A stretch of DNA of 64,000 nt, from positions 96,001 to 160,000 of IMG/VR virus record IMGVR_UViG_3300047312_000028. The stretch is one strand, 5' to 3'. Source of the stretch: a virus. Below the pieces are notes generated by a model. The model made no database searches and was not told the origin of the DNA. It saw nothing but the letters and a program-made list of their open reading frames with translations. The position numbers were made by a program, and so were the translations under genes. Positions within the stretch are counted from its first letter, which is position 1. The number at the start of each line of letters is the position of its first letter. Below, one piece after another: positions 6,939-63,446 of this stretch.

Positions 6939-7646
6939 ATGCAAATTACCGAAGTGCATATCAGCACAAGACATTTTGAATTTGCGCATGGTAAAAAGCC
7001 CAGAGGCACAGGATCATGGGCCTTCGGTACACACCCTAATCAACCTGTAGATAAGTTATTCTGGCACAATGGTCCTTATGGTGAGGCCGCAAAGGCTGCC
7101 AAAGAACACGCCAAGAAGAACGGTCATGGAGAAATGCACGTCATGTCTGAATCAAAAGAAGACGATATCAGAGATAGATCCTTAAAAGTCAAACGAGAGT
7201 TGGATGCCGCAGCGCGTTCAAAAGTTGCAAAGAAAACCTTAGACGCGGCCGCAGCCGCAAAGAAGGCAAAAATGATGAAGGAAGATTTTGCTCCAATCGG
7301 TGATGTGATTACATTGGTGGCCAACGATCAGCGTTCTGAAGCGACCTCAATTGTCAATGACCTTTTGAGTGCCCGAGTACTCGACGCACTCCAGGGGCAT
7401 AAGCAAGACATTGCCAAGTCGTTGTTTGCACCAGGCACAGAAGCCTTGCAAGAAGAGACTGAACAACTTGACGAAAAGAATTGGATTGCAGGCGCCGTAA
7501 AGAACAAGGGTGGATTGCATCGTGCGTTAGGTGTCAAGGAAGGCGATAAGATTCCTGAAAGCAAGATCGACGCCGCAGCACACAAAAAGGGTAAGGTTGG
7601 TAAAGAAGCTCGCTTGGCAAAGACGCTCAAGGGATTCCACAAGTAA
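6939..7646 (+). CDS. Prohead core protein (gp67-like helix) with extra basic modules
   Basis: Position after the portal; gp67-like segment (IVNDLLSARVLDALQGHKQDIAKSLF) flanked by modules bounded by ITE, MSE, MKE, LQEE and LDE. Confidence 0.6.
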   Translation: MQITEVHISTRHFEFAHGKKPRGTGSWAFGTHPNQPVDKLFWHNGPYGEAAKAAKEHAKKNGHGEMHVMSESKEDDIRDRSLKVKRELDAAARSKVAKKTLDAAAAAKKAKMMKEDFAPIGDVITLVANDQRSEATSIVNDLLSARVLDALQGHKQDIAKSLFAPGTEALQEETEQLDEKNWIAGAVKNKGGLHRALGVKEGDKIPESKIDAAAHKKGKVGKEARLAKTLKGFHK

Positions 7647-7650
7647 TTCA

Positions 7651-8505
7651 ATGAAAGAATTTACAGACCTACGCAAGCAATTGTATGAAGGGGTGGAGGA
7701 CTTGGCGGAGCATATTGCAATCGCCACTAGTTCTATGCCTCCCAACATTCTGATTCTTCGTAGGAAGACTGTACGACAGTTCCCAAATCATACGATGGTT
7801 GCCTTGTATTACAATGATAAGCTCGACCAATATTTCAGCATTCCTTATGGCGGTGATGCTAGCGCAGTGGTCACTCCAGTCTCATTGAGAGAAGAAGAAC
7901 AGCTTCAAGAAGTTTCTGATAAGGTGGCTACCTCAGCATTCTATGCCCGTCTTGGTCGTTCTAAGTATGCGTCCAAGAAAGGTGACCGCGTTACGGCCGA
8001 TAAGCACATGACAAAAGCTATGCAGACGCATGAGCGCATTAAGAAAAAGCATTTGGAAGAAGACATAGAAGAACTCGACGAAGCCGGCTATCGTACAAAT
8101 CCAAAACGTGCCGCATGGATGTCCGAATTTGAAACTCATGTAGTCAAGCAGGCGCCTGAACACACTGGGAAGATCGATTGGGATTCCGCGCACCATATGC
8201 ACTTTTCTGGCAAGGGCGCAAAAGAATCAGCAGACCAGTATGTAAAGAGCCGACACCAGTTACCTGAATCAGTCGAACACAACGCGATTGATACACTACG
8301 ATCAATCAGAGACTTTCACGCGATTAAGCATATCAAACATGACGATGGAACAAAGACGCATGTAGACCCAACGACTGCCCATGCACTCTTAACGGTTCAT
8401 GATGCGTTGAAGCCAGAGCACCAAACAAAGTTTGCAGAGCATTTGAAAGCCTCAAAGCCAAAGTTTAACAAGATGCTTGATTTTACATGGAAGTCGGTGC
8501 ACTAA
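7651..8505 (+). CDS. Putative internal head/prohead core polyprotein
   Basis: Likely start ATG 7651 (MKEFTDLRKQLYE, capsid-targeting-like); several L-X-E boundaries; lies in the head cluster. Confidence 0.6.
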   Translation: MKEFTDLRKQLYEGVEDLAEHIAIATSSMPPNILILRRKTVRQFPNHTMVALYYNDKLDQYFSIPYGGDASAVVTPVSLREEEQLQEVSDKVATSAFYARLGRSKYASKKGDRVTADKHMTKAMQTHERIKKKHLEEDIEELDEAGYRTNPKRAAWMSEFETHVVKQAPEHTGKIDWDSAHHMHFSGKGAKESADQYVKSRHQLPESVEHNAIDTLRSIRDFHAIKHIKHDDGTKTHVDPTTAHALLTVHDALKPEHQTKFAEHLKASKPKFNKMLDFTWKSVH

Positions 8506-8909
8506 TGCACCCGATTACAGCAATCGTGACCGGGGAAGGCGCGATAGCTAAAAAGATTATTTCTGAAGCGTTAAATAGTATTGTGTTAGAGAAGATTGCC
8601 ATACTACGAAAGATCATGTCGAATCGAGTACATGGAACGCTTGCAGAAGCAAACAGAATGCGCCAGGGTCGTACAGTTTTAATTCGTCGCCGCATTCGTA
8701 AAGGGAAGTTACAGCGTAACATTCGACGATCCGCCGTCAAGGGATTCACATTGCGCCACGGTAAGATTACTCGTATCCCAGTGGCCAGACGTGTGCATAT
8801 GAGAATCGTGCAGAGGAGAGCCGCACGTAAACGTAAGGCACATATGCAGCAGACACTCCGTAAGAGAAAATTGAGTCTTAGAAAACGCAAAGCATATGGA
8901 ATCAAGTAA
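8505..8909 (+). CDS. gp68: Prohead core protein gp68-like
   Basis: Extremely Arg/Lys-rich C-terminus (RRAARKRKAH..RKRKLSLRKRKAYGIK); upstream of gp21. Confidence 0.75.
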   Translation: MHPITAIVTGEGAIAKKIISEALNSIVLEKIAILRKIMSNRVHGTLAEANRMRQGRTVLIRRRIRKGKLQRNIRRSAVKGFTLRHGKITRIPVARRVHMRIVQRRAARKRKAHMQQTLRKRKLSLRKRKAYGIK

Positions 8910-9305: not shown

Positions 9306-9959
9306 ATGAAACTAATAAGAGAAAGCGTCGAACAAGTCAAGGTGCTCACAGAATCCGATAAGATTTCGGGTAAGAAGCATTACTACATTGAAGGTATCTT
9401 CATGCAGTCTGACCGCCCGAATAAGAATCGCCGTCAATACCAGTTTGAATCACTCAATAAAGAAGCAGACCGGTATCGTTCTGTGTATATCGATAAGAGC
9501 CGCGCATTTGGCGAACTTGGTCATCCTGACTCTCCAACGATTAACTTGGAACGAGTTAGTCATATGATTAAGGAACTTCGTCCAGATGGCAAAGATTTCT
9601 ACGGCAAAGCGAAGATTCTAGAAACTCCATACGGCAAAATCGTGCAAAGTCTTCTTGATGAAGGTGCGATGATTGCAGTCAGCACCCGCGGATTGGGTTC
9701 ATTGGTCAAGGGTTCAGACGGTATTGATATCGTACAAGACGATTATCAGTTGGCTACAGCGGCCGACATTGTAGCAGACCCTTCTGCCCCTGATGCTTTT
9801 GTGCATGGCATCATGGAAGGCAAGGAGTGGATGTGCGTTGAGGGTAGATATGTGGAATGCGACATTGAACGCGCAAAAAAGGTCATCGAAGCGGCCCCAG
9901 GTCGTCGATTACAAGAAGTTGCCGTTCGCCTATTCTCAGAGTTTATGAGAAAACTGTAA
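9306..9959 (+). CDS. gp21: Prohead core scaffold protease
   Basis: MKLIRE, YIEGIFMQ, GELGHP, VSTRGLGS, DIVADPSAPDA. Confidence 0.97.
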   Translation: MKLIRESVEQVKVLTESDKISGKKHYYIEGIFMQSDRPNKNRRQYQFESLNKEADRYRSVYIDKSRAFGELGHPDSPTINLERVSHMIKELRPDGKDFYGKAKILETPYGKIVQSLLDEGAMIAVSTRGLGSLVKGSDGIDIVQDDYQLATAADIVADPSAPDAFVHGIMEGKEWMCVEGRYVECDIERAKKVIEAAPGRRLQEVAVRLFSEFMRKL

Positions 9960-10022: not shown

Positions 10023-11120
10023 ATGAAAAATGCGTTGTTAGAAGCTGCCGCTGAAATCTTAAAAGCTAGCCATTCGAGTGCACCAAAAGAAGAAATGCAC
10101 AAGATGGCCGGTGAAGTTGAAGACCTCGGTGGAGATACTCCACAAGAGCACAGCGATAAGAAACTTGACGTACATGCCAAGGAAGCAACTCCTCCAGGCA
10201 AGCAACCAGATTCGAGCACAAAAGCCGCAATGCCAACCGTCGCAGGAAAGCCAGGCGAGGCCATCGATCCAACAGAGGCTGGTGAAAAGACAGCAGAAGA
10301 GTTGGAAAGAGAACGTCGCATTAACGCCGGGTTGGAAGCAGGCGATTTGAAAGAGGGTAAGGTAGTCAGTGATGAAACATGGAAGAAGAATCTCAAAGAA
10401 GACGTTGCCGCAATCTTGGCGTCTGAATCAGGACTCTCACAAGAGTTTTCAGCCAAAGTCGGTACCATCTACGAAGCCCGCGTTACCGATAAAGTTCAGA
10501 GCATTCAGGAACAGTTAGAGAAATCTTACGAGACGAAGTTTGCCGCTGCCGTTATCGAAGTCCGCGACAGCTTGACCGAGCAAGTCAATGACTATCTCGA
10601 TTATGTTGTTGAAGAGTGGATGAAGCAGAACGAATTGGCAATCGAAAAGGGTCTCCGCTCGGAGTTGACCGAAGAGTTTATTACATCACTTCGCAACGTA
10701 TTCTTGGAACACTATATCGACATTCCTGCCGAGAAGGTCAGCATCGTTGACGAACTCGCAACGAAGGTCGAAGAGTTGACCACTTCATTGAATGAAGAAG
10801 TTGCCAAGGGTGTTGAACTCAAGAAGCAACTCGGCGAATCGAAGAAGTCAGAAATTCTCAACAGCGTATGTGATGGATTGACACAGACGCAAGTTGAAAA
10901 AGTTCGTACACTCGCAGAGAGTGTCGAATTCACCGCAGAAGGTGATTACAAGGGTAAGGTTTCAACAATCCGAGAGAACTACTTCCCAGTGTCTACAGGT
11001 AAAAAGATCGACGCGAAAGTGTTGACCGAAGCATCTGAACCATTGGCGGAAGAGAAGCCAGCAATTGTTGATGCAGGCGTGGCAAGTGTCGCTGCCTCAC
11101 TCAGCAAAATTATGAAGTAA
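10023..11120 (+). CDS. gp22: Prohead core scaffold protein
   Basis: YLDYVVEEWMKQNELAIEKGLRSEL; acidic coiled coil; precedes the major capsid gene. Confidence 0.95.
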   Translation: MKNALLEAAAEILKASHSSAPKEEMHKMAGEVEDLGGDTPQEHSDKKLDVHAKEATPPGKQPDSSTKAAMPTVAGKPGEAIDPTEAGEKTAEELERERRINAGLEAGDLKEGKVVSDETWKKNLKEDVAAILASESGLSQEFSAKVGTIYEARVTDKVQSIQEQLEKSYETKFAAAVIEVRDSLTEQVNDYLDYVVEEWMKQNELAIEKGLRSELTEEFITSLRNVFLEHYIDIPAEKVSIVDELATKVEELTTSLNEEVAKGVELKKQLGESKKSEILNSVCDGLTQTQVEKVRTLAESVEFTAEGDYKGKVSTIRENYFPVSTGKKIDAKVLTEASEPLAEEKPAIVDAGVASVAASLSKIMK

Positions 11121-11152
11121 TCACCAATACCAAAGAACGAAGGAGCATACAC

Positions 11153-12502
11153 ATGTTTTTATCAGAGAATCTAGAGAAAAAGTGGGCAGCAGTGCTTGAC
11201 CACGAATCCCTCCCAAAGATCACCGACAAGTATCGTCGCGCGGTCACTGCGATTGTTCTTGAGAACCAAGAAACCGCATTGAAGAGCGAAGCGAGAATGT
11301 TGAACGAATCTGCCCCAACCAACTCCACAGGTGGTGGGTTGACAGGTGGATCCGCCGCAGCAGGTCCAATGGCTGGTTATGATCCAATTCTTATCAGCTT
11401 GGTCCGTCGTTCCCTTCCAAACTTGATTGCATACGACGTATGCGGAGTGCAGCCAATGACCGGTCCAACAGGATTGATCTTCGCAATGCGTTCCAATTAT
11501 GCCAATGCGACAGCGGGCCGCTTGGATGAATCCTTCTACAACGAAGCCAACACTGGTTGGTCTGGTAACTTGGTTGCACAAACTGCAATCAGCTTGGCAG
11601 CAGATACTTCCCTCGGTTCCCAGAACGTGTTTGCTAGCACCATGACAACAGGTGGTGGTATCAACACAGTCACAGCAGAAGGTTTGGGTTCAGGTGGTGG
11701 TATTCCTCCATTCCAGGAAATGGGCTTCAGCATTGAAAAAGTCACGGTTACTGCAAAGACCCGTGCTTTGAAGGCTGAATACTCACTCGAACTCGCTCAG
11801 GATTTGAAGGCAATCCACGGTTTGGATGCTGAGACAGAATTGTCCAACATTCTTTCCGCAGAAGTGCTTTCTGAAATCAACCGCGAAGTCATCCGCACAA
11901 TCTACACGGTTGCGAAGGTTGGCTGCCAGGTTGGTACAACGACACCAGGTACTTTCGACCTTGACACCGACTCAAACGGTCGTTGGATGGTTGAAAAGAT
12001 CAAGGGTCTTGTATTCCAGATCGAGCGTGAAGCCAACGTCATTGCAAAGCAAACCCGTCGCGGTAAGGGTAACGTGGTCATCTGCTCTTCAGATGTGGCC
12101 TCGGCATTCGCACTCGCCGGCGTGCTTGACTATGCAGGAGCGTTGAAGGACAATGTGAACTTGAGTGTGGACGACACAGGTAACACCTACGCAGGTACCT
12201 TGCTCGGACGCTACAAGGTCTACATTGACCCTTACTTCCCAGCAGCCCAGTCAGCAGAATTCGCAGTTGTGGGTTACAAGGGTACGAACGCATTTGATGC
12301 GGGACTCTTCTACTGCCCATACGTTCCTCTCCAGATGGTTCGTGCTATTGACACGAACACCTTCCAGCCAAAGATCGGCTTCAAGACCCGATACGGTTTG
12401 GTTGCGAACCCATTCGCAGAAGGTCTCGTACAGGGTCTTGGTGCATTGAACGCAAAGGCGAACATGTACTACAGAGCATTGAAGATTTCCAACATTGCAT
12501 AA
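11153..12502 (+). CDS. gp23: Major capsid protein
   Basis: GVQPMTGPTGLIFAMR, RALKAEYSLELAQDLKAIHGLDAE, FQPKIGFKTRYG; propeptide cleavage site LNE/S. Confidence 0.99.
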   Translation: MFLSENLEKKWAAVLDHESLPKITDKYRRAVTAIVLENQETALKSEARMLNESAPTNSTGGGLTGGSAAAGPMAGYDPILISLVRRSLPNLIAYDVCGVQPMTGPTGLIFAMRSNYANATAGRLDESFYNEANTGWSGNLVAQTAISLAADTSLGSQNVFASTMTTGGGINTVTAEGLGSGGGIPPFQEMGFSIEKVTVTAKTRALKAEYSLELAQDLKAIHGLDAETELSNILSAEVLSEINREVIRTIYTVAKVGCQVGTTTPGTFDLDTDSNGRWMVEKIKGLVFQIEREANVIAKQTRRGKGNVVICSSDVASAFALAGVLDYAGALKDNVNLSVDDTGNTYAGTLLGRYKVYIDPYFPAAQSAEFAVVGYKGTNAFDAGLFYCPYVPLQMVRAIDTNTFQPKIGFKTRYGLVANPFAEGLVQGLGALNAKANMYYRALKISNIA

Positions 12503-37110: not shown

Positions 37111-37724
37111 AACCAAAAAGAAGTTCTATTTCAGTGACAAAGGATGAAATCATCATTCATTGGGGTGAATTTCTAATGAATCACAAAGGGAGAAGGGATG
37201 ATTTGTTTGGTAGATGTTTCGCTTGTGATTTCAAAACAGAACATCTAGATAGAGCGCACATCATGCCAGTTATGGAAGGCGGTAGTAACAAGGTCGATAA
37301 TCTTCACTGTTTGTGTAAAATATGTCATCTTGAAAGTGAATTACTATACGGGGATCAGTATTTTAGATGGTTCAAATCCATGAGTCCGGAGAAACGAAGA
37401 GCTATAGAGTTTTTGAAATATGGAGATGACTCTATCAATAGTAAGTTTATTTCAATGATTAAAAAACCACATCATATAGATGTGGCAGAAGCTTCTCACC
37501 AAAGATCCTTAAGTAGAAAATTAAACATCACAAAAAATATGCAATCTTCTGACAATATGGGAAGGCCTTCCCGAGATTTTACTCCAGAAGAAATACAAAC
37601 CATATTAACTGAAAGAAAGAATGGTATTGGGATAAAGGTTCTAGCAAAGAAATATAGCATAGGAATAGGTACCATATATAGAATTTTAACCCAACCAATT
37701 CAATCAACACATGAACCCCTTTGA
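37107..37724 (+). mobile_element. HNH endonuclease with C-terminal HTH
   Basis: CFAC, RAHIMP..GGSNKVDNLHCLCKICH; C-terminal LAKKYSIGIGTIYRIL; AT-rich. Confidence 0.8.
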
Positions 37725-38094
37725 TTACGTCAAAAACATCCAACACACCAAAGAAAATCTCATGGCTGACCCTCAGTCAGAGAAAGAGTATCAGCCGTTC
37801 CTTATCAACAAGACACTCTCCTATGAGATGGATTGTTTGATGCAGGCGAACGAGATGAACCAGCGGCATCACCTCGACAAAAAGCTTCAATACCACTATC
37901 TTATAAATATCATTCGCGCACGTAAGCGACCTTTTCATAAGTGGATTAAGCCTGAGACCAGTGAAGTGATAGACGCAATCAAGCTCTTTTTTGATTGCTC
38001 GGACCAAAAAGCGCAGGAAGCTCTCAGAATACTTTCCACCGAAGAGATCGAACTCATTCAACAGAAGACGATTAAAGGTGGTATTGTAAAATGA
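37711..38094 (+). CDS. gp62: Clamp loader small subunit
   Basis: MNPFDYVK, YQPFLINKTLS, ANEMN, QYHYLINIIR.RKR. Confidence 0.93.
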   Translation: MNPFDYVKNIQHTKENLMADPQSEKEYQPFLINKTLSYEMDCLMQANEMNQRHHLDKKLQYHYLINIIRARKRPFHKWIKPETSEVIDAIKLFFDCSDQKAQEALRILSTEEIELIQQKTIKGGIVK

Positions 38095-47875: not shown

Positions 47876-48507
47876 TGAAACTACAACACATTCATGACTT
47901 GGTTGTGAAGGTGCCAGAGGGTAGTCTCACTCCCAAGCAGATCATTCAGCCATTGAGAAAAGCGTTCAAACCCTATCCTTGGATACGGTTTGAGAAAAGA
48001 ATTATGTCTATTTCAAACGCAAAGGGTCTTGCTGATGGAATGCTTATCACTGGAAAGTTTGAGCATGATTGGGTTGATCGGCCAGTCTGCTTTGTGACAC
48101 TGTGGTTTCACTCTGGCAAAGAAGATAAGAGTATATGGTTCTCTGGTAAACTAAGAGATCGTATCTTGTTTGATATCTTTGCCACGATTGCTCATGAGCG
48201 CGTTCATATGTTGCAGGCGAAGAAAGCCAAAGCCTGCCCTCGAAACTTTCATGTGAATATAACGCATGATTGGATGTTGAAGCGCGATATTCAATATTAC
48301 GGATCGAAGATTGAGATTGATGCGTTCGGTCTTACTTCCGTGCTTGAAGATCGATTCGGTATGTCCGGTGAAATCATAGAACGTTATAGAAAGCTATTCA
48401 CACCTTATAGTCTTCTCTATAAGCGATTCTTAAAGAAAAAGTATGAGTACAACTTGAAAACTCCTCACATAAATAGTTCATTATGCAACCATTCAAAACT
48501 CACATAA
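47875..48507 (+). CDS. Hypothetical HExxH metalloprotease-like protein
   Basis: IAHERVHMLQ ... YYGSKIEIDAF. Confidence 0.6.
   Translation: MKLQHIHDLVVKVPEGSLTPKQIIQPLRKAFKPYPWIRFEKRIMSISNAKGLADGMLITGKFEHDWVDRPVCFVTLWFHSGKEDKSIWFSGKLRDRILFDIFATIAHERVHMLQAKKAKACPRNFHVNITHDWMLKRDIQYYGSKIEIDAFGLTSVLEDRFGMSGEIIERYRKLFTPYSLLYKRFLKKKYEYNLKTPHINSSLCNHSKLT
48468..48475 (+). promoter_or_regulatory. Late promoter variant CATAAATA
   Basis: 8 nt upstream of ATG 48483. Confidence 0.65.
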
Positions 48508-49700
48508 CAACAGAGAAGAATATACACCTAGAGCACATTGAAGACCAGGTGCTCAATCGTGGCGCCTATGGTGCGACAGAATCACTCAACTTCCTATTTG
48601 CGTTGCGTGATATGCTTGCCGGCCATGCGACTGCACCAATCAATCTTACCACTAAGTGGGACGGAGCACCGGCAGTTGTATGCGGAGTCAATCCAGAAAA
48701 CGATCAGTTCTTTGTTGGAACAAAATCAGTGCTCAACAAAACACCAAAGTTGAACTATACTGAGAGAGATATTAACGTCAATCACCCTAACGATGAACTT
48801 AATCAGAAGTTGAAGGCCTGTCTTCGATATCTTCCTAAGCTCGGTATCAAAGGTATCTTGCAAGGGGATCTGATGTTCACGAAAGGTGATGTGAAGGATC
48901 AAACCATCGACGGCCGAGAGTATGTGACGTTCACACCCAACACACTCACCTATGCGTTTCAGAAGGGTACTACACTTGCTGAGAGGATCAAAGAGGCACA
49001 ACTCGGTATCGTGTTTCATACATCATATCACGGCACGAAGATGGATAACCTAATCGCGTCTTACAACGTCGATATCGGGTACTTGAATCACCCCAAAGAA
49101 GTCTGGTATCGTGATGCTAGTTATGTGGATGAAACAGGCACGGTCACATTCACGCAAGAAGAACTGACATACTTGAATACACTCTTGAATAGTGCAGTCA
49201 AGTCATTTTCGGCGATCAATGACAAGGTACTCAACCAGATTGCGCTGAACGGTATCTATCGTGACAACATAAAGATTTTCAACAACACAAAGGTCCGCGC
49301 TGGCGAATCAATCTTAGATACGACACTATATACCAATCAGTTGATCCACTGGCTTGAAACTCGTATGACAGCAGCTATCGGTGAAGCGAAGTTACCAGAG
49401 ACAAAACGCAAGCGTACACAAGAGCGAACCAACGTCCTAGGGTTCTTAAGAGCCCATGCTCCTGAACTCAGATCGATTTTTGACTTGCAGAATCAACTTG
49501 TCTATGCTAAAATGTTTATCTTAAATAAGCTTCACCAAGTCAGCAACACACATACATTCCTACGAACAGAGACGGGATACAAAGCGACGAACCCAGAGGG
49601 GTTTGTGGCCGTCGATCATTTTGGCAATGCTGTTAAGCTTGTCGATAGACTCAGCTTTTCCCATGCGAACTTCACCGCCGCAAAGGATTGGTCAAAGTAA
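48483..49700 (+). CDS. DUF6267-like protein with ligase/nucleotidyltransferase-like motifs
   Basis: HLEHIED, TTKWDGAPA (KxDG), QGDLMF, PEGFV, VKLVDR; capsid-targeting-like N-terminus MQPFKTHITTE. Confidence 0.75.
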   Translation: MQPFKTHITTEKNIHLEHIEDQVLNRGAYGATESLNFLFALRDMLAGHATAPINLTTKWDGAPAVVCGVNPENDQFFVGTKSVLNKTPKLNYTERDINVNHPNDELNQKLKACLRYLPKLGIKGILQGDLMFTKGDVKDQTIDGREYVTFTPNTLTYAFQKGTTLAERIKEAQLGIVFHTSYHGTKMDNLIASYNVDIGYLNHPKEVWYRDASYVDETGTVTFTQEELTYLNTLLNSAVKSFSAINDKVLNQIALNGIYRDNIKIFNNTKVRAGESILDTTLYTNQLIHWLETRMTAAIGEAKLPETKRKRTQERTNVLGFLRAHAPELRSIFDLQNQLVYAKMFILNKLHQVSNTHTFLRTETGYKATNPEGFVAVDHFGNAVKLVDRLSFSHANFTAAKDWSK

Positions 49701-56829: not shown

Positions 56830-57299
56830 TCTATATTGCGCACAGAGGTAATATCAAAGGTTCGGATCCTCAACGAGAAAATGCGCCTGGATACATCGAC
56901 GAGGCTTTGAACCTGGGGTATAAAGCTGAGGTTGATCTGTGGGCAGAGGGTGACCAATTGTGGCTCGGCCACGATGCTCCCCTTTACCCAATCTACATTG
57001 ATTTCATTCGATGTAGACAACGAGAACTCTTTGTTCACTGCAAGAATACAGATGCACTAGATGCCGTAAGATCAGGTAAAGTTGATGCCCATTACTTCTT
57101 TCACCAACATGATGACTACACATTGACCAGTGAAGGCCTTGTATGGGTCTATCCTGGTCGCATGATGTGTGATAAGTCAATCCTCGTCCTTCCTGAGTCG
57201 TGGCTTAACAACGATCAGTATGTTGATTACATAGAGCGATGGCAAGGTAAGATCGTTGGTGTGTGTTCAGATTTTGTTGACACACTCAAGACTTTATAA
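56826..57299 (+). CDS. Glycerophosphodiester phosphodiesterase-like protein
   Basis: IAHRGN, EN, EVDLW, LGHD, HCKN, GVCSD. Confidence 0.8.
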   Translation: MIYIAHRGNIKGSDPQRENAPGYIDEALNLGYKAEVDLWAEGDQLWLGHDAPLYPIYIDFIRCRQRELFVHCKNTDALDAVRSGKVDAHYFFHQHDDYTLTSEGLVWVYPGRMMCDKSILVLPESWLNNDQYVDYIERWQGKIVGVCSDFVDTLKTL

Positions 57300-57302
57300 A
57301 TA
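57295..57302 (+). promoter_or_regulatory. Late promoter TATAAATA
   Basis: Exact consensus upstream of the 57339-62910 block. Confidence 0.8.
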
Positions 57303-57338: not shown

Positions 57339-59765
57339 TTGTATCTACCAAAAGACGGCCTTAATATCTCCAGAGAACTTCTCCCCCAGGTCGCCAACGC
57401 GGACCTCCCCGATTACTTCAATTGGCTTAAAACTAACAAGCAAATCTCCTGCATTACTACCGAATTGCCTGTTTCTTCGCTTCATCCATCACAAGGTGAC
57501 TTCAATGAAGAGAAGATTGCCGAATTGATGACGCATAGACTGGAAGAACTCAAAAAGCCAATCATTGTGTCTTCTGACTTCTTCGTGCTCGATGGTCACC
57601 ATCGTTGGCTAGCGTTGCTCAATATGGACCAGAACGACACTATACCGGTAGTCATGACGAATGTGAAGATCATGGATCTGCTTGCAGCCACGAAAGAGTA
57701 TCCTAAGTCATTCACTAGAACTGTGGTCGAATCATTCAAGAGTATGATCGGTAGCAAACATGCGGTTATGTCTTATGCCCGCATGAATCCTCCAACGAAG
57801 GGTCATGAGAAGCTGATTCATACGGTGCATCATGTAGCGAATGAGTTTGCCGCTCACCATGAGATCGTATTAAGTCATAAACACGACAACACAAAGAACC
57901 CATTGAGCCAGGAGACCAAGCACAGCTACCTGAAGCAGATGTTTCCAGATACAAATTTTGTGAACGCAACAGATGAACATCCAAGTATATTTCACCACGC
58001 GACACGTTTGAATCGCGCAGGATACAAGCATTTACATGTGGTCGCTGGTGATGATCGTGCCAAAGAGTTTGAGGAGAAATTACATAAATACAACGGGCAC
58101 TATGATGACGCAGGCAACGGCTATAAATTCGACTCGATAACTCTTCACTCCGCTGGTTCGAGAAACCCAGAAGGAAAAGGACTTGAGGGGTTATCGGGTA
58201 CGAAATTGCGTGATTATGCAGCAAATGGGAACTATCCAGAATTTGCAAAAGGTGTGCCAGGATCAACAGAAGTCGCCAAAAGACTCTACAACGATGTGCG
58301 ACAAGGATTAAAACCGATGAACGAGAGTGCAGAACTTCTAGAAGAAGGCGTCCATGACGCTGCTATTTTCAAGGCCGTGTTTCTTGCTGGTGCACCAGGC
58401 TCCGGTAAAGACTATGTTCTTAAGCATGCCTTAGATGGCCACGGTCTTACAGAGATCAGTTCAGATCCGATGTTGACCCATTTGATCGATAAGAACCAAA
58501 TGGATCGAAAGATGCCAGAGCATGAGCAAGAGAAGCGTGGCCTGTTGAGAAAGAAAGCTCAATCACTCACCGACCTGCGCCAGAAGCTTGCATTACATGG
58601 TCGCAACGGTATCATAGTCAACGGTTCAGGTGCTAGTTTTGACCAGGTTAAGAAAATCAAAGGTATGCTTGATGAACTAGGCTATGCCTGCAAGATGATC
58701 TTTGTAGATACCAGCGACAATGTAAGCCGCAATCGCAATATCGAACGTGGTCAGAAGGGCGGTCGCACTGTTCCTGAGAAAGCACGAGCAGAGAAGTGGA
58801 GAGCCGCGCAGGATTCTCGTGTCAATTTCTCTAAACTCTTTGGTTCTGAGAACTATCACGAATTCAACAACGACGAAGACCTCCGCAATAACACTGACGG
58901 TGAAGTACATAAGCAGAAGACGAAAGAACTTGAAGACCTCTTCAAGACAGTCAAGAAGTTTACGCAGCAACCACCGGAGCATCCATCTGCACAAGAATGG
59001 GTTCATAAGAATCTTGGTAAGCTTGCAAAGCAACCACTTGGCAACAAGACTCAGCAAAAGAAGCAAATCCCGGCTTCACCCGATGCACAAGCGACAGAAG
59101 ACGCCCGCAAACTTGGGCTTCAGTACTATGGGTATGGTCGCTATGGTAAAGCAGGACGTGTCACGCATTTCTCATTGAACGGCAAACTGGTAGAGAAGAA
59201 GAAAGCATTGACTCCACCTAAGTCGTTAGAACCAGCAAAAACAACAAAGAAGCTTGATGAAGCTTTTGAAGAACTATTTACGGAGGATAATGATGAACGT
59301 ATACGATTGGAAAATCACATGGCTTCTTCTTTTGTGGTGGGAGGATTGGAAGTGGTTCCTTTACATGTACAATACCTCTCCGACACCATGCGAGGACACA
59401 GAGAAAGAGTTGATAAAAACAGTCAAGACAGATTCAGTAACCTCCGTGAATACGTTTGTGAAACCAGCAGGAGTGAAGTTCGAGTGGGAACCGACAAAAG
59501 TGACACCAAAGCGCAAGGTAACCAAGAAGAGAAACCCCAAGAAACAACTTCTTCTTTCCGAGGGCTCATGGAACGATTGGGGTCTAGAAGAACAGAAGTC
59601 AAAAAAGAAATCCTCAAAGAAGGCGAGCCGACGCAAGACGTAGGAGGTGACGGTGGTCCTATTCTTGGTACTGGAACCGCCGAGACTGTTGATAGTACAA
59701 ACGGTGGCATTGCCACGAACGGTCCAAAGAAGACATTGAAGAAGTTCAAGGGAGATATCAAGTAA
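57339..59765 (+). CDS. Multidomain protein: ParB/Srx-like + HIGH-type cytidylyltransferase-like + zeta-toxin/AAA_33-like P-loop kinase + C-terminal modules
   Basis: LHPSQ..PIIVS..LDGHHRW; RMNPPTKGHEKL, NPLS, VAGDDR, SGTKLR; LAGAPGSGKDY, RNIERG. Confidence 0.82.
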   Translation: MYLPKDGLNISRELLPQVANADLPDYFNWLKTNKQISCITTELPVSSLHPSQGDFNEEKIAELMTHRLEELKKPIIVSSDFFVLDGHHRWLALLNMDQNDTIPVVMTNVKIMDLLAATKEYPKSFTRTVVESFKSMIGSKHAVMSYARMNPPTKGHEKLIHTVHHVANEFAAHHEIVLSHKHDNTKNPLSQETKHSYLKQMFPDTNFVNATDEHPSIFHHATRLNRAGYKHLHVVAGDDRAKEFEEKLHKYNGHYDDAGNGYKFDSITLHSAGSRNPEGKGLEGLSGTKLRDYAANGNYPEFAKGVPGSTEVAKRLYNDVRQGLKPMNESAELLEEGVHDAAIFKAVFLAGAPGSGKDYVLKHALDGHGLTEISSDPMLTHLIDKNQMDRKMPEHEQEKRGLLRKKAQSLTDLRQKLALHGRNGIIVNGSGASFDQVKKIKGMLDELGYACKMIFVDTSDNVSRNRNIERGQKGGRTVPEKARAEKWRAAQDSRVNFSKLFGSENYHEFNNDEDLRNNTDGEVHKQKTKELEDLFKTVKKFTQQPPEHPSAQEWVHKNLGKLAKQPLGNKTQQKKQIPASPDAQATEDARKLGLQYYGYGRYGKAGRVTHFSLNGKLVEKKKALTPPKSLEPAKTTKKLDEAFEELFTEDNDERIRLENHMASSFVVGGLEVVPLHVQYLSDTMRGHRERVDKNSQDRFSNLREYVCETSRSEVRVGTDKSDTKAQGNQEEKPQETTSSFRGLMERLGSRRTEVKKEILKEGEPTQDVGGDGGPILGTGTAETVDSTNGGIATNGPKKTLKKFKGDIK
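59290..59643 (+). CDS. Possible overprinted gene (+1 frame) inside the 57339 gene
   Basis: GGAGG SD just before ATG 59290; 117 codons; Trp-rich N-terminus and Lys-rich tail. Confidence 0.4.
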   Translation: MMNVYDWKITWLLLLWWEDWKWFLYMYNTSPTPCEDTEKELIKTVKTDSVTSVNTFVKPAGVKFEWEPTKVTPKRKVTKKRNPKKQLLLSEGSWNDWGLEEQKSKKKSSKKASRRKT

Positions 59766-61606
59766 TGGATACCTCAACGAAGTGGACGCCAGCCGTAAAG
59801 ACTGCCCATCATTATCAGGGGCAGATCAACGGTAAGACATATGTGGTACCTCATGCGTCTTTGAATATCTATCACAAAGGTGGATATGCAGAGCCGATGC
59901 GTCATTCGATTGTCACTTCGTTGCATCATGTGCAGCATAACAATCCAGACTTGACGCCTGAAGAACATACACGAGTGCATGAACATATCAAGGCAATTCA
60001 TGGGGGACAAGCGCCTGCCAAGCTGAAGGAAGAAATCAAAATCACCACGACGCCTGCAACACGAAAAGAGTTGAAGGCGGCACGACCAATGCGTAAAGGA
60101 GCCGCGGAGAGATTTATGAAAAGATTTGCTGCCAAAACAGAACTAGAAAAAAAAGAACAACTCAGTGAATCAAAACAAAAGCTCTACAATCCCGATGGGT
60201 CGTTTCGAGCCGGCGTCAAAGTGACCGTCGATGGAAAGCACGGAGAGATCAGTCATGTTCATCACAGTCAAGAACACCCAACCTATCCACACTCCTATAA
60301 AGTCACTGACTTGGGCGCGAATGATCCCTACAAACAAACTCGTTTACGCGGCAACACATTCATTTCACATAGAGACATAAAGCCATTAGAAGAACGAGCA
60401 TTAACTGCCGCCGAGACGGACAAGAAAGAGGATATGGTGCATTCCATGAAGAAGAACCTTCAGAGCTTCAAAGATCGATACGGCGCGGACGCCAAGAGTG
60501 TGATGTACGCGACGGCGACGAAGAAAGCAAAAGAGTTGGCAGAACGAAGTGAGAACTTCATGTTTACCCATCACCCTGGCGACCCAGAGAGCGAAGATAA
60601 GTTGAAACGCGCTAAACAAATGCTACAGGGTACCGGTAAGAAGCTGCACGTTCGCGCCCGTTTAGGAAAAGACAATCCTAACGCCCATGAATATAAGAAC
60701 AACACGCGCCATGGGCATCCTGCTTCAAATAGATATCAGACGATCTTGAAGCAAGACGCCAAGCATTTTGACGTATACAAGCGTCCAAGCATTCATGAAG
60801 AATCGCATGGTAGTAACTTCCTTGATAAGGACCGTACAGACGCCAAGATCAATCGACGTAAAAGTTTTGCGGCTCATGCGAAAGAGAAGAGAGAGAATGA
60901 AGCCCATAAGGATAATCATCATGAGGGTCCTTTGAATGAAAGTCTCTCTGCCTTTATGAAGACCTATAAGAAAAACGAAGCACGAAACGAACACCAAGCT
61001 AATATGGTGCATCTTGCAAAACACTTCGGTAATGAAGCCGATCAAAAAGAAGCACAGTTTTACTATGATGAACAGAAGAAGCACGGAGAGAATAGACACT
61101 CCGAAGCTCAATCTAAGTTACACAGAAAGTTATGGCCGAGAGCAGTAGCCAAACACACCTATAGCAATTACAACGAAGAGGTAGACGCCATGAGTCAACT
61201 TAACGAAACATTACATGCGTACCAGGTACATCACAACGGCAAGCATATCGACACTGTATTCTATGGTAGTCACGAAGACCCAGCCGATGTGAAGAAGTCG
61301 TTGGTCAACCATGATGGTTATGACCCAGGCATCACAATCAAGAAAGAAAAGTTCCATCACCTTCCAGTGAGAAAGAACCTGAAGGAAGAAACACCATCCA
61401 AGCTTCCATTGATTCGATCTGTGTTGAAAGAAATGTCCACCCGTAAACACTTTCAACAAGTGGCCGATTTGATTAAGGCGAACCCAGATGCGAAGAAGCG
61501 CCAGGAGTTTGCGAATCATCATGCTACAGTGTTTGCGGCGCAGAACCCACGTTTCAACCATGAGTTATTTCATAAGGCCGCGGGCACCACATATACGAAA
61601 TCATAA
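59765..61606 (+). CDS. Putative internal head polyprotein (His/Lys-rich modules separated by gp21-type sites)
   Basis: LKEE, LSE, LEE, LAE, IHEE, LNE, YNEE, LNE, LKEE, LKE spaced roughly 10-90 aa apart. Confidence 0.65.
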   Translation: MDTSTKWTPAVKTAHHYQGQINGKTYVVPHASLNIYHKGGYAEPMRHSIVTSLHHVQHNNPDLTPEEHTRVHEHIKAIHGGQAPAKLKEEIKITTTPATRKELKAARPMRKGAAERFMKRFAAKTELEKKEQLSESKQKLYNPDGSFRAGVKVTVDGKHGEISHVHHSQEHPTYPHSYKVTDLGANDPYKQTRLRGNTFISHRDIKPLEERALTAAETDKKEDMVHSMKKNLQSFKDRYGADAKSVMYATATKKAKELAERSENFMFTHHPGDPESEDKLKRAKQMLQGTGKKLHVRARLGKDNPNAHEYKNNTRHGHPASNRYQTILKQDAKHFDVYKRPSIHEESHGSNFLDKDRTDAKINRRKSFAAHAKEKRENEAHKDNHHEGPLNESLSAFMKTYKKNEARNEHQANMVHLAKHFGNEADQKEAQFYYDEQKKHGENRHSEAQSKLHRKLWPRAVAKHTYSNYNEEVDAMSQLNETLHAYQVHHNGKHIDTVFYGSHEDPADVKKSLVNHDGYDPGITIKKEKFHHLPVRKNLKEETPSKLPLIRSVLKEMSTRKHFQQVADLIKANPDAKKRQEFANHHATVFAAQNPRFNHELFHKAAGTTYTKS

Positions 61607-61614
61607 GGACTGAT

Positions 61615-62910
61615 ATGAAGAAGTTCACTGAGTTAAAAGAAAACACACCGACAGTGCATACCTACAGAGGGTACTCTATCAAGGAGTATGAGGGAAAGTT
61701 CCATGTGCAGAAGACGCCTGGGACTACTCTATCCCATCATGCCAGCAAGAAGGATGCCAAGAGTCGTATCGATTACTACCACAGGCTCCCAGATAAGAGC
61801 ATGTCGCATGGTGATATGGTCTCGTTGGTCAATGAAACAAAGTGGCATGTTAAAGAAGAGAAAGAAGTACCGAAGAGCACACTACCTAGCGACGAACCAA
61901 AGAAGAATGAGGAGTCTATCAAGAACATATCTGCGCATGATAAAAGGACTCTATCACTCATGAAGTCAATGTTTGGTCGCCGCCCTATGAAGGAAGAGAC
62001 AGAGCGAGAACGTAAGTCTCATGCTGTGCGTATGGCACCTGCACCTACTAATGACCAATTAGAAAAGCGGGATGAGTCAGATGATCTTATCAAGAAGAAT
62101 TTTGAGACTGCACAAAAGAAAACGGCTGATGCACTTGCCTCTAAGGAAATCACGAAAGTCATGAAAGAGTCAGTCGGTAGTGTACCGGGTGGCGGTGTGC
62201 TCGACGAAAGCGGACCTGATACATACAAAGTCGGAGATCATGTCATTGCAAAGATCGGTCCTCACGCTGGTCAGGTGCATAGAGTCATTCATGTGCATCC
62301 TACAGGGCATCTGAATATTACACCAATCGGGCACAGCAACCGATATAAGTTAGGGGCAGCGAAAGCGAACCCAGAAGATGTGACGCGACAGCTTGAAGAA
62401 GCGAAGAAGAAACCTAAAAAGAAGTTCGTACCAGATCCAAAGATTTGGAAAAAACTGCCCGTACTATCAAAGCTCCTAGGTGTCAAATTAGAAGAATCGA
62501 TCATATCACGCACGACAGTCCAAGAGGTCTTTCAGGCAGCGAAAGCGAAGAAGAAAGAAGCGGGTAAAGACAAGAAAGAGATCAAGACTGACCCAAAGAA
62601 AGATCCAAAGAAAGAGAAAGTGTCAGCACAAGACTTTGACAAACCGAAGGAGTTTCAGGACCCTGGGCAAGCTGAACCAGATCAGACCGAAGTCCAGGCA
62701 AAACCCCCTCAGTTCGGCGGCAAAGACGGTGACGATGCAAAGCCCAAGGAGAAGAAGAACAACACTCCAGAGCCAGAAAAGAAGGGCACAAAGCTTGTAG
62801 TCAAGGGCCCTGGTGCTGATGACAAGTTCCAGACCGATCCTATCGTAACCCCTGTGACAACGTTGCCGGACACGGCATCCGCACGAACCGGTAGCCAAGG
62901 GGTCAGGTAA
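61615..62910 (+). CDS. Putative internal head polyprotein with capsid-targeting-like N-terminus
   Basis: MKKFTELKE start; VNE, VKEE, MKEE, MKE, LDE, LEE, LEE boundaries. Confidence 0.65.
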   Translation: MKKFTELKENTPTVHTYRGYSIKEYEGKFHVQKTPGTTLSHHASKKDAKSRIDYYHRLPDKSMSHGDMVSLVNETKWHVKEEKEVPKSTLPSDEPKKNEESIKNISAHDKRTLSLMKSMFGRRPMKEETERERKSHAVRMAPAPTNDQLEKRDESDDLIKKNFETAQKKTADALASKEITKVMKESVGSVPGGGVLDESGPDTYKVGDHVIAKIGPHAGQVHRVIHVHPTGHLNITPIGHSNRYKLGAAKANPEDVTRQLEEAKKKPKKKFVPDPKIWKKLPVLSKLLGVKLEESIISRTTVQEVFQAAKAKKKEAGKDKKEIKTDPKKDPKKEKVSAQDFDKPKEFQDPGQAEPDQTEVQAKPPQFGGKDGDDAKPKEKKNNTPEPEKKGTKLVVKGPGADDKFQTDPIVTPVTTLPDTASARTGSQGVR

Positions 62911-62912
62911 CA

Positions 62913-62920
62913 TATAAATA
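62913..62920 (+). promoter_or_regulatory. Late promoter TATAAATA
   Basis: Exact consensus, intergenic. Confidence 0.8.
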
Positions 62921-62933
62921 GAGTGACAATATT

Positions 62934-63446
62934 ATGAGAGATCCAAATATGATTATTTACTGCGATAGTGACGGTGTTATCTGTGACTTCTACGGTGGTG
63001 CCGAGAAGCTCCTGGGGCATCCTTGGGGTGAACGGCACGGGGTAAGACAAAAAGCACTCGAACAAGGTTTACTACTCAACAAGCACGAAACTTTCTGGTC
63101 GACACTCCCAGAGATACCAGATTGGAAAGTTTTGTGGAGCTTTATTGAAAAGTACGATCCTCATATTCTGACAGCAGTTCCGGCTTGGGATCATGATTTT
63201 GCTGTAGTTGAAGAAGGTAAGTGGGAGTGGTATCAGAAACACATTCCTTTGCTTCCGAGAGACCGCTTTCATGTTGTGTATCGTGACGAAAAGGCACAAT
63301 TCGCACGAAATGGTGACGTGCCTAACATTCTGATTGATGACCATCCAGGTAACATAAAAGACTTTGAAGCGGCCGGCGGTATTGGAATCTATCATGTCAG
63401 TGCGAAAGTTACGATTTTGAAACTTAAGGAACTCGGGTATCACTAA
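62934..63446 (+). CDS. HAD-family 5'(3')-deoxyribonucleotidase-like protein
   Basis: YCDSDGVICDF, ILTA, K..W, ILIDDH..N..F.AAGGIGI. Confidence 0.85.
   Translation: MRDPNMIIYCDSDGVICDFYGGAEKLLGHPWGERHGVRQKALEQGLLLNKHETFWSTLPEIPDWKVLWSFIEKYDPHILTAVPAWDHDFAVVEEGKWEWYQKHIPLLPRDRFHVVYRDEKAQFARNGDVPNILIDDHPGNIKDFEAAGGIGIYHVSAKVTILKLKELGYH

What the first reader, a model, noticed from the sequence alone, without database searches (positions are those of the whole stretch)
59765..62910. Late polyproteins of short basic modules joined by prohead-protease-type sites: candidate capsid cargo-delivery system
Seen: two large ORFs (613 and 431 aa) downstream of a TATAAATA promoter have no single recognisable fold. 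They are strings of His/Lys-rich segments, mostly ~40-90 aa, each ending in (L/I/M/V/Y)-X-E (LKEE, LSE, LEE, LAE, IHEE, LNE, YNEE, LNE, LKEE, LKE; LKE, VNE, MKEE, MKE, LDE, LEE, LEE). The second begins MKKFTELKE. The same motif sits at this phage's own gp23 propeptide end (MLNE/S). Known: T4 gp21 cleaves after (L/I)-X-E, T4 internal proteins use a ~10-aa capsid-targeting sequence (MKTYQEFIAE-like), and the processed protein IPI* is injected and inhibits the GmrSD nuclease. Inference: these genes are expandable cassettes that gp21 cuts into roughly 15-20 small proteins, packaged and possibly ejected as an anti-defence or host-takeover payload.
Basis: partly seen in the sequence, partly recalled or inferred. 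Interest (0 to 1): 0.85.

Follow-up and report, generated by a model that had tools for sequence, protein, structure and literature searches.

The report
Protease-jointed phage head cargo polyproteins
An uncultured T4-like phage encodes two late proteins that are chains of small, swappable basic modules joined at the cutting motif of its own head protease; they are probably loaded into the capsid and cut into about 15 small proteins, but no cutting or packaging has been measured.

Summary
ORF A (59765-61606, 613 aa) and ORF B (61615-62910, 431 aa) are real, conserved, His/Lys-rich genes with no Pfam family. They follow ORF C in a tight run behind a TATAAATA at 57295.

In this one sequence the motif is only weakly enriched: [LI]xE 9 vs 4.1 expected in A, not significant in B or with M/V/Y allowed. 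Across about 100 non-redundant relatives the signal is strong and specific. L-x-E is 2.35x enriched (z about 21), while L-x-D, L-x-Q and M/V/Y-x-E are not, and other ORFs of this genome give 1.13x.

- Homology blocks end exactly at the motif.
- 7 of 9 sites in A lie in low-confidence linkers of a beads-on-a-string model.
- Syntenic genes in related phages carry different module sets.
- B-type proteins share only a 9-residue T4-CTS-like leader (MKKFKELKE). ORF A lacks one.
- The commonest module (2,932 clusters) is a stand-alone 61-aa gene with the leader MKTFKQFQDLIE in cultured cyanophages.
- Modules are shared with ORFs between portal and protease, and one relative starts with the gp22 N-terminal region.

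Cleavage by gp21 is well supported by inference. Packaging, ejection and any anti-defence role are untested. It is a new variant of the T4 internal-protein system. This scan has flagged the same kind of thing in other T4-like genomes.

The parts
57295..57302 (+). TATAAATA, T4 late-promoter consensus, 37 nt upstream of ORF C; likely promoter of the C-A-B run
   Evidence: 5 copies in the window against 1.07 expected, all on the + strand. Others sit before the sheath gene (2526) and gp22 (9984); no terminator-like site between C, A and B.
57339..59765 (+). ORF C, 808 aa: ParB-like N-terminus, cytidylyltransferase, Zeta/AAA_33-type P-loop kinase and a basic tail ending KKTLKKFKGDIK. First gene of the run; overlaps A by TAATG
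   Evidence: Pfam and PHROG hits; junction; same gene order in 8 related loci.
59765..61606 (+). ORF A, 613 aa, pI 9.6, chain of modules; no CTS-like leader
59765..60031 (+). A module M1 (aa 1-89, ends LKE). Constant N-terminal anchor of all A-like genes, with invariant His30, His55, His74 and His79; pLDDT 85-95
   Evidence: E89 is conserved in at least 90% of relatives whatever module follows.
60032..60169 (+). A module M2 (aa 90-135, ends LSE), helical, low confidence
60170..60394 (+). A module M3 (aa 136-210, ends LEE), small beta barrel (weak SH3/Tudor-like)
60395..60544 (+). A module M5 (aa 211-260, ends LAE), basic helical hairpin with the core FKDRYG..AKSVMYATATK; the most widespread module
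   Evidence: over 110 proteins; 2,932 clusters at 50% identity; 131 of 133 copies have hydrophobic-x-E immediately before the module; stand-alone 61-aa gene in cyanophages S-8S55 and S-PRM1.
60545..60940 (+). A modules M6 and M7 (aa 261-345 ending IHE; aa 346-392 ending LNE), rare, mostly disordered
60941..61207 (+). A module M8 (aa 393-481, ends LNE), helical bundle, pLDDT 80-92; 0-2 copies in relatives
61208..61387 (+). A module M9 (aa 482-541, ends LKE; phrog_6353). A stand-alone 47-aa gene in Pseudomonas PAK_P1-like phages
61388..61603 (+). Short linker piece (aa 542-556, ends LKE) and C-terminal module M11 (aa 557-613), helical, pLDDT 85-94; frequent C-terminal cap of A-like genes
61615..61641 (+). 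ORF B leader MKKFTELKE (aa 1-9): T4-CTS-like, with F4, L7 and L-K-E at 7-9
   Evidence: 29 of 37 B-like proteins match the leader pattern against 1 of 289 ORFs of this genome. Pairwise identity is 0.61 in residues 1-9 and 0.12 in residues 10-39; in T4, targeting depends on residues 4 and 7 and processing on residues 8 and 10.
61642..62208 (+). ORF B variable N-terminal half (aa 10-198, ends LDE): almost unique to this phage, mostly disordered, one long helix at 146-186
62209..62907 (+). ORF B conserved C-terminal anchor: SH3-like domain (aa 199-262, ends LEE), Lys-rich piece (263-294, ends LEE), and a Lys-rich tail with a conserved end (295-431)
   Evidence: The site before the SH3-like domain has Glu in 28 of 37 relatives and a hydrophobic P3 in 34 of 37.
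62913..63446 (+). TATAAATA (62913-62920) and the NT5C-type 5'-deoxyribonucleotidase gene (62934-63446). In other phages NT5C is fused behind an M5 module in one protein
   Evidence: (760-aa proteins with PF06941).
9306..9959 (+). gp21 prohead protease (Peptidase_S77), the presumed processing enzyme; His, Ser and Asp motifs align with T4 gp21
6939..8505 (+). Two ORFs between portal and protease (6939-7646; 7651-8505, the latter starting MKEFTDLRKQLYE) that share modules with the A family
10023..12502 (+). gp22 scaffold (19 [LI]xE sites) and gp23 major capsid protein (propeptide ends MLNE, aa 52, nt 11308): in-genome reference substrates

Best explanation
ORFs A and B, probably together with ORF C and the NT5C gene, form a late 'head cargo' locus. 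Each protein is a chain of small, independently folding, mostly basic modules joined by short acidic linkers that end in L/I-x-E. The family consensus is E-Q-L-D/N/E-E followed by S, E or G.

Proposed mechanism:
1. The precursors are made late and enter the assembling prohead core. B enters through a 9-residue T4-type capsid-targeting leader. A presumably enters through its constant M1 module or by binding other core proteins.
2. The S77 prohead protease gp21 cuts after each junction Glu. This removes the leader and releases about 10 (A) plus 5 (B) polypeptides of 1.7-20 kDa, pI 7-10.
3. The basic pieces probably stay with the packaged DNA, as T4 internal proteins and internal peptides do. Some may leave with it at infection.

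Because the joints are generic, modules can be added, lost, duplicated or exchanged between genes and phages without disturbing loading or release.

Shown here: modularity, motif specificity, conservation of the leader, module exchange, and a conserved protease. Inferred: late expression, entry into the head, cleavage, and the fate and function of the pieces.
For: 1. Motif specificity. In 102 non-redundant relatives (51 kaa), L-x-E occurs 563 times against 239 expected (2.35x, z about 21) and I-x-E is 1.38x. L-x-D is 0.87, L-x-Q is 0.81 and M/V/Y-x-E is about 1.0. In 202 other ORFs of the same genome L-x-E is 1.13x.
2. Position of the motif. Internal ends of homology blocks carry the motif within -2 to +8 residues in 32% of cases against 16% for random positions (z about 26), peaking exactly at the Glu; control motifs are flat. 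The junction residues E89, E210, L258, A259 and E260 are among the few invariant or near-invariant columns of alignment A1.
3. Structure. The AlphaFold model of A is beads on a string, and 7 of 9 sites lie in linkers with pLDDT below 50, which cover 31% of residues (p=0.005).
4. Same specificity in known substrates of this genome. gp23 MLNE|S aligns with the T4 site LTE|A, gp22 has 19 sites, and the gp21 catalytic motifs are kept.
5. Leader. 29 of 37 B-like proteins start MK(K/T/R)F(K/R)(E/D)L(K/T/R)E while the sequence after it is unrelated. Many A-like proteins start MKSFKQVAEE. The ORF at 7651, in the portal-protease gap, starts MKEFTDLRKQLYE.
6. Stand-alone modules. M5 is a 61-aa gene that starts MKTFKQFQDLIE|K in cyanophages S-8S55 and S-PRM1, at the syntenic place. 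M9 is a 47-aa gene in PAK_P1.
7. Link to the head core. Modules are shared with the ORFs at 6939 and 7651 next to gp21. Relative P0338 joins the gp22 N-terminal region (E=3e-13) to a module chain that ends in M5.
8. Cassette behaviour. Syntenic A-like genes range from 352 to 1168 aa and B-like genes from 222 to 850 aa, with different module sets.
9. A late-promoter consensus lies upstream of the run.
Against: - There is no physical evidence: no virion proteome, no observed cleavage and no cultured host.
- ORF A and about half of the relatives that begin with M1 have no leader, and no upstream start or frameshift supplies one.
- In this single sequence the enrichment is modest.
- For M5 the preceding hydrophobic-x-E sits at a fixed offset in 131 of 133 copies. 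There it could be part of the domain rather than a cleavage site.
- The family counts come from homologous sequences and are not fully independent.
- The locus lies about 48 kb from the head genes.
- B is mostly disordered, with few strict sites in its N-terminal half.
Confidence: 0.6

Rival explanations
1. Accessory scaffold or core proteins. A and B enter the prohead and are cut by gp21, but serve assembly (core building, head-size control, charge balance during packaging). Their fragments are mostly expelled like gp22 peptides, so nothing functional is delivered to the host.
For: - Site density and linker style resemble gp22.
- P0338 starts with the gp22 N-terminal region.
- Modules are shared with ORFs beside gp68-like and gp21 genes.
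- M5 is extremely conserved, which suits a structural role better than an effector role.
Against: - The fragments are basic (pI 7-10), unlike the acidic gp22 peptides, so they should bind DNA and be retained.
- Gene content at the locus is highly variable, which is odd for an assembly factor.
- M9 exists as a stand-alone gene in phages with a different head system.
Confidence: 0.2
2. Uncut multidomain proteins. A and B work as intact beads-on-a-string proteins. They could be packaged like polyvalent proteins, or act in the cytoplasm as DNA- or nucleoid-binding late proteins. Under this reading L-x-E is simply a favoured helix-capping linker motif.
For: - Polyvalent phage proteins with many domains are known (PMC5512222).
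- ORF A has no leader.
- The motif before M5 may belong to the domain.
- The single-sequence statistics are weak.
Against: - A linker preference does not explain the strict need for Glu (L-x-D and L-x-Q are depleted).
- It does not explain the identity with the gp23 and gp22 sites of the same phage.
- It does not explain why stand-alone modules carry a leader that ends in the motif exactly at the module boundary.
Confidence: 0.15
3. Chance or annotation artefact: long ORFs of biased composition that are not functional genes.
For: No Pfam family, and large disordered parts.
Against: - 133 and 37 homologues were found, with conserved synteny in 8 loci.
- Several modules fold with high confidence.
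- Both starts have ribosome-binding sites.
Confidence: 0.01

Closest known systems
Phage T4 internal proteins IPI, IPII, IPIII (and Alt): capsid-targeting sequence plus gp21 processing
   Same: The setting is a T4-like phage with an S77 prohead protease. A roughly 10-residue N-terminal leader has an aromatic residue at position 4, a hydrophobic residue at 7 and ends in L/I-x-E. Only the leader is conserved, and the mature parts are diverse and basic.
   Different: - T4 IPs are single small proteins cut once. Here many modules are strung together and would be released by 5-9 internal cuts.
- ORF A has no leader.
- The locus lies beside enzymes (cytidylyltransferase/kinase, NT5C).
- No sequence similarity to IPI-III was looked for or seen.
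- Packaging and injection are unproven.
T4 prohead core proteins gp22, gp67 (precursor of internal peptides) and gp68
   Same: These are cut at many L/I-x-E sites into small peptides, some of which stay in the head. This phage keeps gp22 and a gp68-like gene. A-family modules occur in the ORFs next to them, and one relative carries the gp22 N-terminal region.
   Different: A and B are basic rather than acidic. They consist of folded modules that also exist as stand-alone genes, vary in content between close relatives, and lie outside the head gene cluster.
Inner-body and ejection proteins of giant phages phiKZ, 201phi2-1 and SPN3US, processed by a gp21-like protease
   Same: Many head-internal proteins are cleaved after Glu at a short motif (A/S/G-x-E), sometimes at several sites. 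The propeptides act in targeting (PMC5694885).
   Different: The P3 preference differs, the propeptides are long rather than a 9-10-residue leader, and no shuffled small-module chains have been described there.
Polyvalent proteins of phages and conjugative elements (Iyer et al. 2017, PMC5512222)
   Same: These are multi-module proteins thought to travel with the DNA. Their module content is shuffled between elements. ORF C has typical polyvalent domains (ParB-like, Zeta-type kinase).
   Different: In those proteins release, where proposed, uses an embedded peptidase and the modules are mostly enzymes. Here the modules are small and non-enzymatic, and the joints match the separate prohead protease.

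Membership tests
T4-type internal proteins (CTS-led, gp21-processed head cargo) | N-terminal leader of about 10 residues: hydrophobic or aromatic at positions 4 and 7, ending in L/I-x-E | tested here: met
   Met for ORF B only: MKKFTELKE, conserved in 29 of 37 relatives against 1 of 289 genome ORFs; T4 rule. NOT met for ORF A (MDTSTKW), although 9 or more of 21 M1-first relatives have MKSFKQVAEE-type leaders.
T4-type internal proteins (CTS-led, gp21-processed head cargo) | The phage encodes a gp21/S77 prohead protease with an intact catalytic triad and L/I-x-E specificity | tested here: met
   PF03420, E=3.8e-31. The His, Ser and Asp motifs align with T4 gp21. Specificity is inferred from the gp23 MLNE|S site and the 19 gp22 sites.
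T4-type internal proteins (CTS-led, gp21-processed head cargo) | Late expression | tested here: inconclusive
   TATAAATA at 57295 upstream of ORF C, tight C-A-B spacing and no terminator. No transcript data.
T4-type internal proteins (CTS-led, gp21-processed head cargo) | Present in the mature head in processed form and ejected with the DNA | not testable with these tools
   The phage is uncultured, and no virion proteome was found for any relative carrying these modules.
T4 prohead core / scaffold proteins (gp22, gp67, gp68) | Sequence membership (T4_CASP or homologues) and position in the portal-protease-scaffold cluster | tested here: not met
   A and B have no T4_CASP or other Pfam hit and lie about 48 kb away. 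They share modules with ORFs 6939 and 7651 inside that cluster.
T4 prohead core / scaffold proteins (gp22, gp67, gp68) | Multiple conserved gp21 sites along the chain | tested here: met
   There are 9 strict sites in A and 5 in B. The junction Glu residues are conserved, and the family enrichment has z about 21.
Polyvalent proteins (Iyer et al. 2017) | Two to 15 mostly enzymatic conflict domains in one chain, often with an embedded releasing peptidase | tested here: not met
   No enzymatic domain or peptidase was detected in A or B. ORF C does fit.

The most novel reading that the evidence does not exclude
T4-like phages of aquatic environments share a general 'plug-in' grammar for loading the capsid. 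A short leader, or a constant anchor module, takes a chain into the prohead core. Generic E-Q-L-D-E-type joints let the head protease release whatever is strung between them. Small proteins that other phages express as early genes (for example M9 in PAK_P1) can thus be delivered ready-made. The 50-residue M5 hairpin (2,932 clusters, also fused to NT5C, cytidylyltransferase and kinase proteins) would be a universal retained DNA- or core-binding adaptor of this system.
Probability: 0.4. Interest if true: 0.75.

Novelty: new variant of a known kind. Interest (0 to 1): 0.6.

Why it matters
T4 internal proteins are the textbook case of phage proteins injected with the DNA, and one of them (IPI*) is a known anti-restriction factor. 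Outside the T-even phages this cargo is almost uncharted.

If these chains are loaded and cut as predicted, thousands of 'hypothetical' proteins of marine and freshwater T4-like phages become readable with a simple rule: leader or anchor, L/I-x-E joints, interchangeable modules. That rule would define a large pool of candidate pre-packaged host-takeover, DNA-condensing or anti-defence proteins. It would explain how such cargo evolves by module swapping. It would also offer natural leaders and linkers for loading foreign proteins into T4-type capsids.

The prediction can be tested directly by virion mass spectrometry on cultured cyanophages that carry the M5 gene.

Tried and rejected
- I looked for a hidden leader for ORF A. 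There is no earlier start codon in frame. The CTS-like KKTLKKFKGDIK at the end of ORF C is in another frame and is a conserved C-terminal motif of C-like proteins, not a displaced leader.
- tblastn against cultured phages found nothing for whole A, for M1 or for the B C-terminal half. blastn found only a 125-nt M5 match.
- Foldseek against the PDB gave no significant fold for any module, only weak SH3/Tudor-like rows. The ESM Atlas search gave no usable lead for M1.
- The search for related loci with ORF C alone found nothing.
- DNA repeats at the joints amount to only a 15-16-nt match between two LKEE-coding joints, too short to count as a recombination signal.
- Sigma-70 promoter and terminator scans were at chance level.
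- Literature searches found no virion proteome covering these genes and no paper describing CTS-led module chains.
- No sequencing-run look-up was made.


Full report
**Context**

The window is part of a 176-kb contig of an uncultured T4-like myovirus. It carries:
- large terminase (779-2512)
- sheath (2607-4508)
- portal (5184-6893)
- S77 prohead protease gp21 (9306-9959)
- scaffold gp22 (10023-11120)
- major capsid protein gp23 (11153-12502)

gp23 is about 62% identical to those of Kyanoviridae cyanophages and of the Methylophilales phage Melnitz.

**The observation**

ORF A (59765-61606, 613 aa) and ORF B (61615-62910, 431 aa) are present as described and hit no Pfam family. A contains 8.6% His and 11.9% Lys. 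B contains 16.2% Lys. The genome means are 2.4% His and 6.1% Lys.

All listed motif positions are correct, and B starts MKKFTELKE. The nearest TATAAATA is at 57295, before ORF C (57339-59765). ORF C is a protein with a ParB-like domain, a cytidylyltransferase, a Zeta-type kinase and a basic tail.

C and A overlap by TAATG, and A and B are 8 nt apart, each with a Shine-Dalgarno sequence. No terminator-like site lies between them. TATAAATA occurs 5 times in the window against 1.07 expected, including before the sheath and gp22 genes. A late C-A-B operon is therefore a reasonable inference.

In this one sequence the motif count is only mildly high.

**Homologues and modularity**

A has 133 relatives of similar length and 81 shorter ones. 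B has 37. None covers A fully.

The coverage map falls into sharp blocks whose edges are the motif sites:
- aa 6-88
- aa 91-134
- aa 136-207
- aa 208-257
- aa 395-470
- aa 483-528
- aa 557-607

An AlphaFold model built on 15 relatives shows beads on a string. Folded modules have pLDDT 75-95 (M1, M3, M5, M8, M9, M11) and are separated by segments below 50. Seven of the nine strict sites lie in those segments, which make up 31% of the chain (binomial p=0.005).

B is mostly disordered. It has one long helix (146-186) and an SH3-like domain (201-240). Only its C-terminal 230 residues are conserved.

No module has a significant PDB fold match.

**Is the joint motif real?**

In 102 non-redundant family members:

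| Pattern | Family | Control (202 other ORFs of this genome) |
|---|---|---|
| L-x-E | 563 observed vs 239 expected, 2.35x, z about 21 | 1.13x |
| I-x-E | 1.38x | 1.06x |
| L-x-D | 0.87x | 1.16x |
| L-x-Q | 0.81x | 0.91x |
| M/V/Y-x-E | about 1.0x | not computed |

The extended consensus is (V/F)-E-Q-L-(D/N/E)-E followed by S, E or G. The median spacing between sites is 56 residues.

Internal ends of pairwise homology blocks carry the motif in 32% of cases against 16% for random positions (z about 26). The peak is exactly at the Glu, and control motifs show no such peak.

In alignment A1 the junction residues E89, E210, L258, A259 and E260 are invariant or nearly so, although the neighbouring modules differ.

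The same motif marks this phage's accepted protease substrates. gp23 MLNE|S aligns with the T4 maturation site LTE|A. gp22 carries 19 sites. gp21 keeps the His, Ser and Asp motifs of T4 gp21.

**The leader**

Twenty-nine of 37 B-like proteins begin MK(K/T/R)F(K/R)(E/D)L(K/T/R)E. Residues 1-9 are 61% identical pairwise, and the next 30 residues are 12% identical. Only B among the 289 ORFs of this genome fits the pattern.

This is the behaviour described for T4 internal proteins, where only the capsid-targeting sequence is conserved. In T4, positions 4 and 7 serve targeting and positions 8 and 10 serve processing.

Many A-like proteins begin MKSFKQVAEE or MRSFKTFMET before module M1. ORF A itself, and about half of the M1-first relatives, have no leader. 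No alternative start or frameshift supplies one. This is the main gap in the packaging argument for A.

**Modules as independent units**

M5 (core FKDRYG..AKSVMYATATK) occurs in 2,932 clusters at 50% identity, 1,804 of them at E below 1e-10. In the 133 copies examined from the best 150 hits:
- 111 are the C-terminal module of proteins of 67-687 aa.
- 131 are directly preceded by hydrophobic-x-E.

In the cultured cyanophages S-8S55 and S-PRM1, M5 is a stand-alone 61-aa gene. It starts MKTFKQFQDLIE and is followed at once by the module. It lies two genes downstream of the cytidylyltransferase gene, which is the syntenic place. Other stand-alone forms start MKSFKDMLSE or MKASDFAE.

M9 is a 47-aa stand-alone gene in PAK_P1-like Pseudomonas phages.

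M5 is also fused, at sequence level, in front of NT5C enzymes. In this window NT5C is the next gene (62934-63446) and has its own TATAAATA. Structural look-alikes of the M5 hairpin sit on viral cytidylyltransferase, Zeta-kinase and SodC proteins. That lead is weak, because the hairpin is short.

**Link to the head core**

Between the portal and protease genes, where T4 has genes 67 and 68, this phage has:
- ORF 6939-7646
- ORF 7651-8505, which starts MKEFTDLRKQLYE
- a gp68-like Arg-rich ORF at 8487-8909

The first two share modules with A-family proteins. One M5-bearing relative (P0338) begins with the N-terminal 120 residues of gp22 (40% identity to this phage's gp22, E=3e-13; phrog_237) and continues as a module chain.

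**Cassette behaviour**

In eight IMG/VR loci the gene order is kept: glycosyltransferase island, C-like gene, A-like gene, B-like gene, NT5C. Within that order:
- A-like genes range from 352 to 1168 aa. They keep M1 at the front and often M11 at the end, with 0-2 copies of M5, M8 or M9 and unrelated inserts.
- B-like genes range from 222 to 850 aa. They have a leader, a variable N-terminal part and a constant SH3-like plus C-terminal anchor.

**Interpretation**

The best reading is that A and B are precursors of head-internal proteins that the prohead protease cuts at L/I-x-E joints. Strict sites predict:
- ten pieces from A (15-89 aa, pI 7.2-10.2)
- a 9-residue leader plus five pieces from B

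The basic charge and the Lys-rich stretches suggest that the pieces stay with the DNA, as T4 internal proteins do.

Two other points remain open:
- Whether any piece acts in the host is unknown. The extreme conservation of M5 argues for a structural or DNA-binding role for that module rather than an arms-race effector. The rare, lineage-specific modules (M6, M7, the B N-terminal half) fit variable cargo better.
- For M5 the flanking motif could be part of the domain itself.

Everything about loading, cutting and ejection is inference.

**Comparison and novelty**

The closest known systems are:
- the T4 internal proteins with their CTS
- the T4 core proteins gp22, gp67 and gp68
- the processed inner-body proteins of phiKZ-like phages
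- polyvalent proteins

The differences here are many small modules strung behind one leader or anchor, and generic joints that match a separate protease.

I found no paper describing this.

Earlier notes of this scan describe the same kind of chain in other uncultured T4-like genomes. Those are unchecked AI notes, not independent evidence, but they mean that this instance is one more member of a recurring pattern rather than a first sighting.

I class it as a new variant of a known kind, with moderate to high interest.

Noticed in passing
window 59724-59762 (end of ORF C); also G000:C1:160889-161506, just past the window end; L003-L012: ORF C and every syntenic C-like protein end in K-K-T-L-K-x-F-x(3-5)-K (for example KKTLKKFKGDIK, PKKTLKQFREKK). 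A second protein (starting MQFLIE...) ends similarly (KRKTLKQLKEELKG). The motif resembles the N-terminal leader and could be a C-terminal targeting peptide or propeptide.
   Followed up: partly
window 6939-7646, 7651-8505, 8487-8909: There are three ORFs between portal and protease. The first two carry [LI]xE-jointed modules shared with the A family, and the second starts MKEFTDLRKQLYE. The third has an Arg/Lys-rich C-terminus like T4 gp68. The ORF listing extends the second ORF to a GTG at 7531, but the ATG at 7651 right after the previous stop is the likelier start.
   Followed up: partly
G000:C1:160039-160473 (39 nt past the window end): A 144-aa acidic protein starts MKAFDLFLKE. Its syntenic homologues start MQPFKQYMQE, MQPFREYLEE or MNGFRKHIQE. 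This is another candidate leader-bearing head protein.
   Followed up: no
window 48483-49700: A DUF6267 protein (E=1.8e-108) starts MQPFKTHITTE, close to the leader MRSLKTHITE of some A-like proteins. It may also be head cargo.
   Followed up: no
window 62913-63446: The NT5C-type deoxyribonucleotidase gene has its own TATAAATA. In other phages NT5C sits in 600-790-aa proteins behind an M5 module and an acidic joint, which suggests that the enzyme can be part of such chains.
   Followed up: partly
L014:4238-4381 (Pseudomonas phage PAK_P1): Module M9 of ORF A is a 47-aa stand-alone gene among small hypothetical genes in 124 PAK_P1-like Pseudomonas phage records. There it has no leader and no flanking joint.
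   Followed up: partly
P0338 (metagenomic protein): This 255-aa protein joins the N-terminal 120 residues of the gp22 scaffold to a module chain that ends in M5.
   Followed up: partly
window 37902-37909: A fifth TATAAATA lies inside or next to ORF 37711-38094, far from known late genes.
   Followed up: no
L005 (IMGVR_UViG_3300036766_000416): In this relative the C-, A-, B- and NT5C-like genes are separated by several paralogous ORFs of roughly 150-230 aa that are absent from the other syntenic loci. From their recurring N-terminal motifs (recalled, not tested with any tool) they look like GIY-YIG-type homing endonucleases, a possible driver of recombination at this locus.
   Followed up: no
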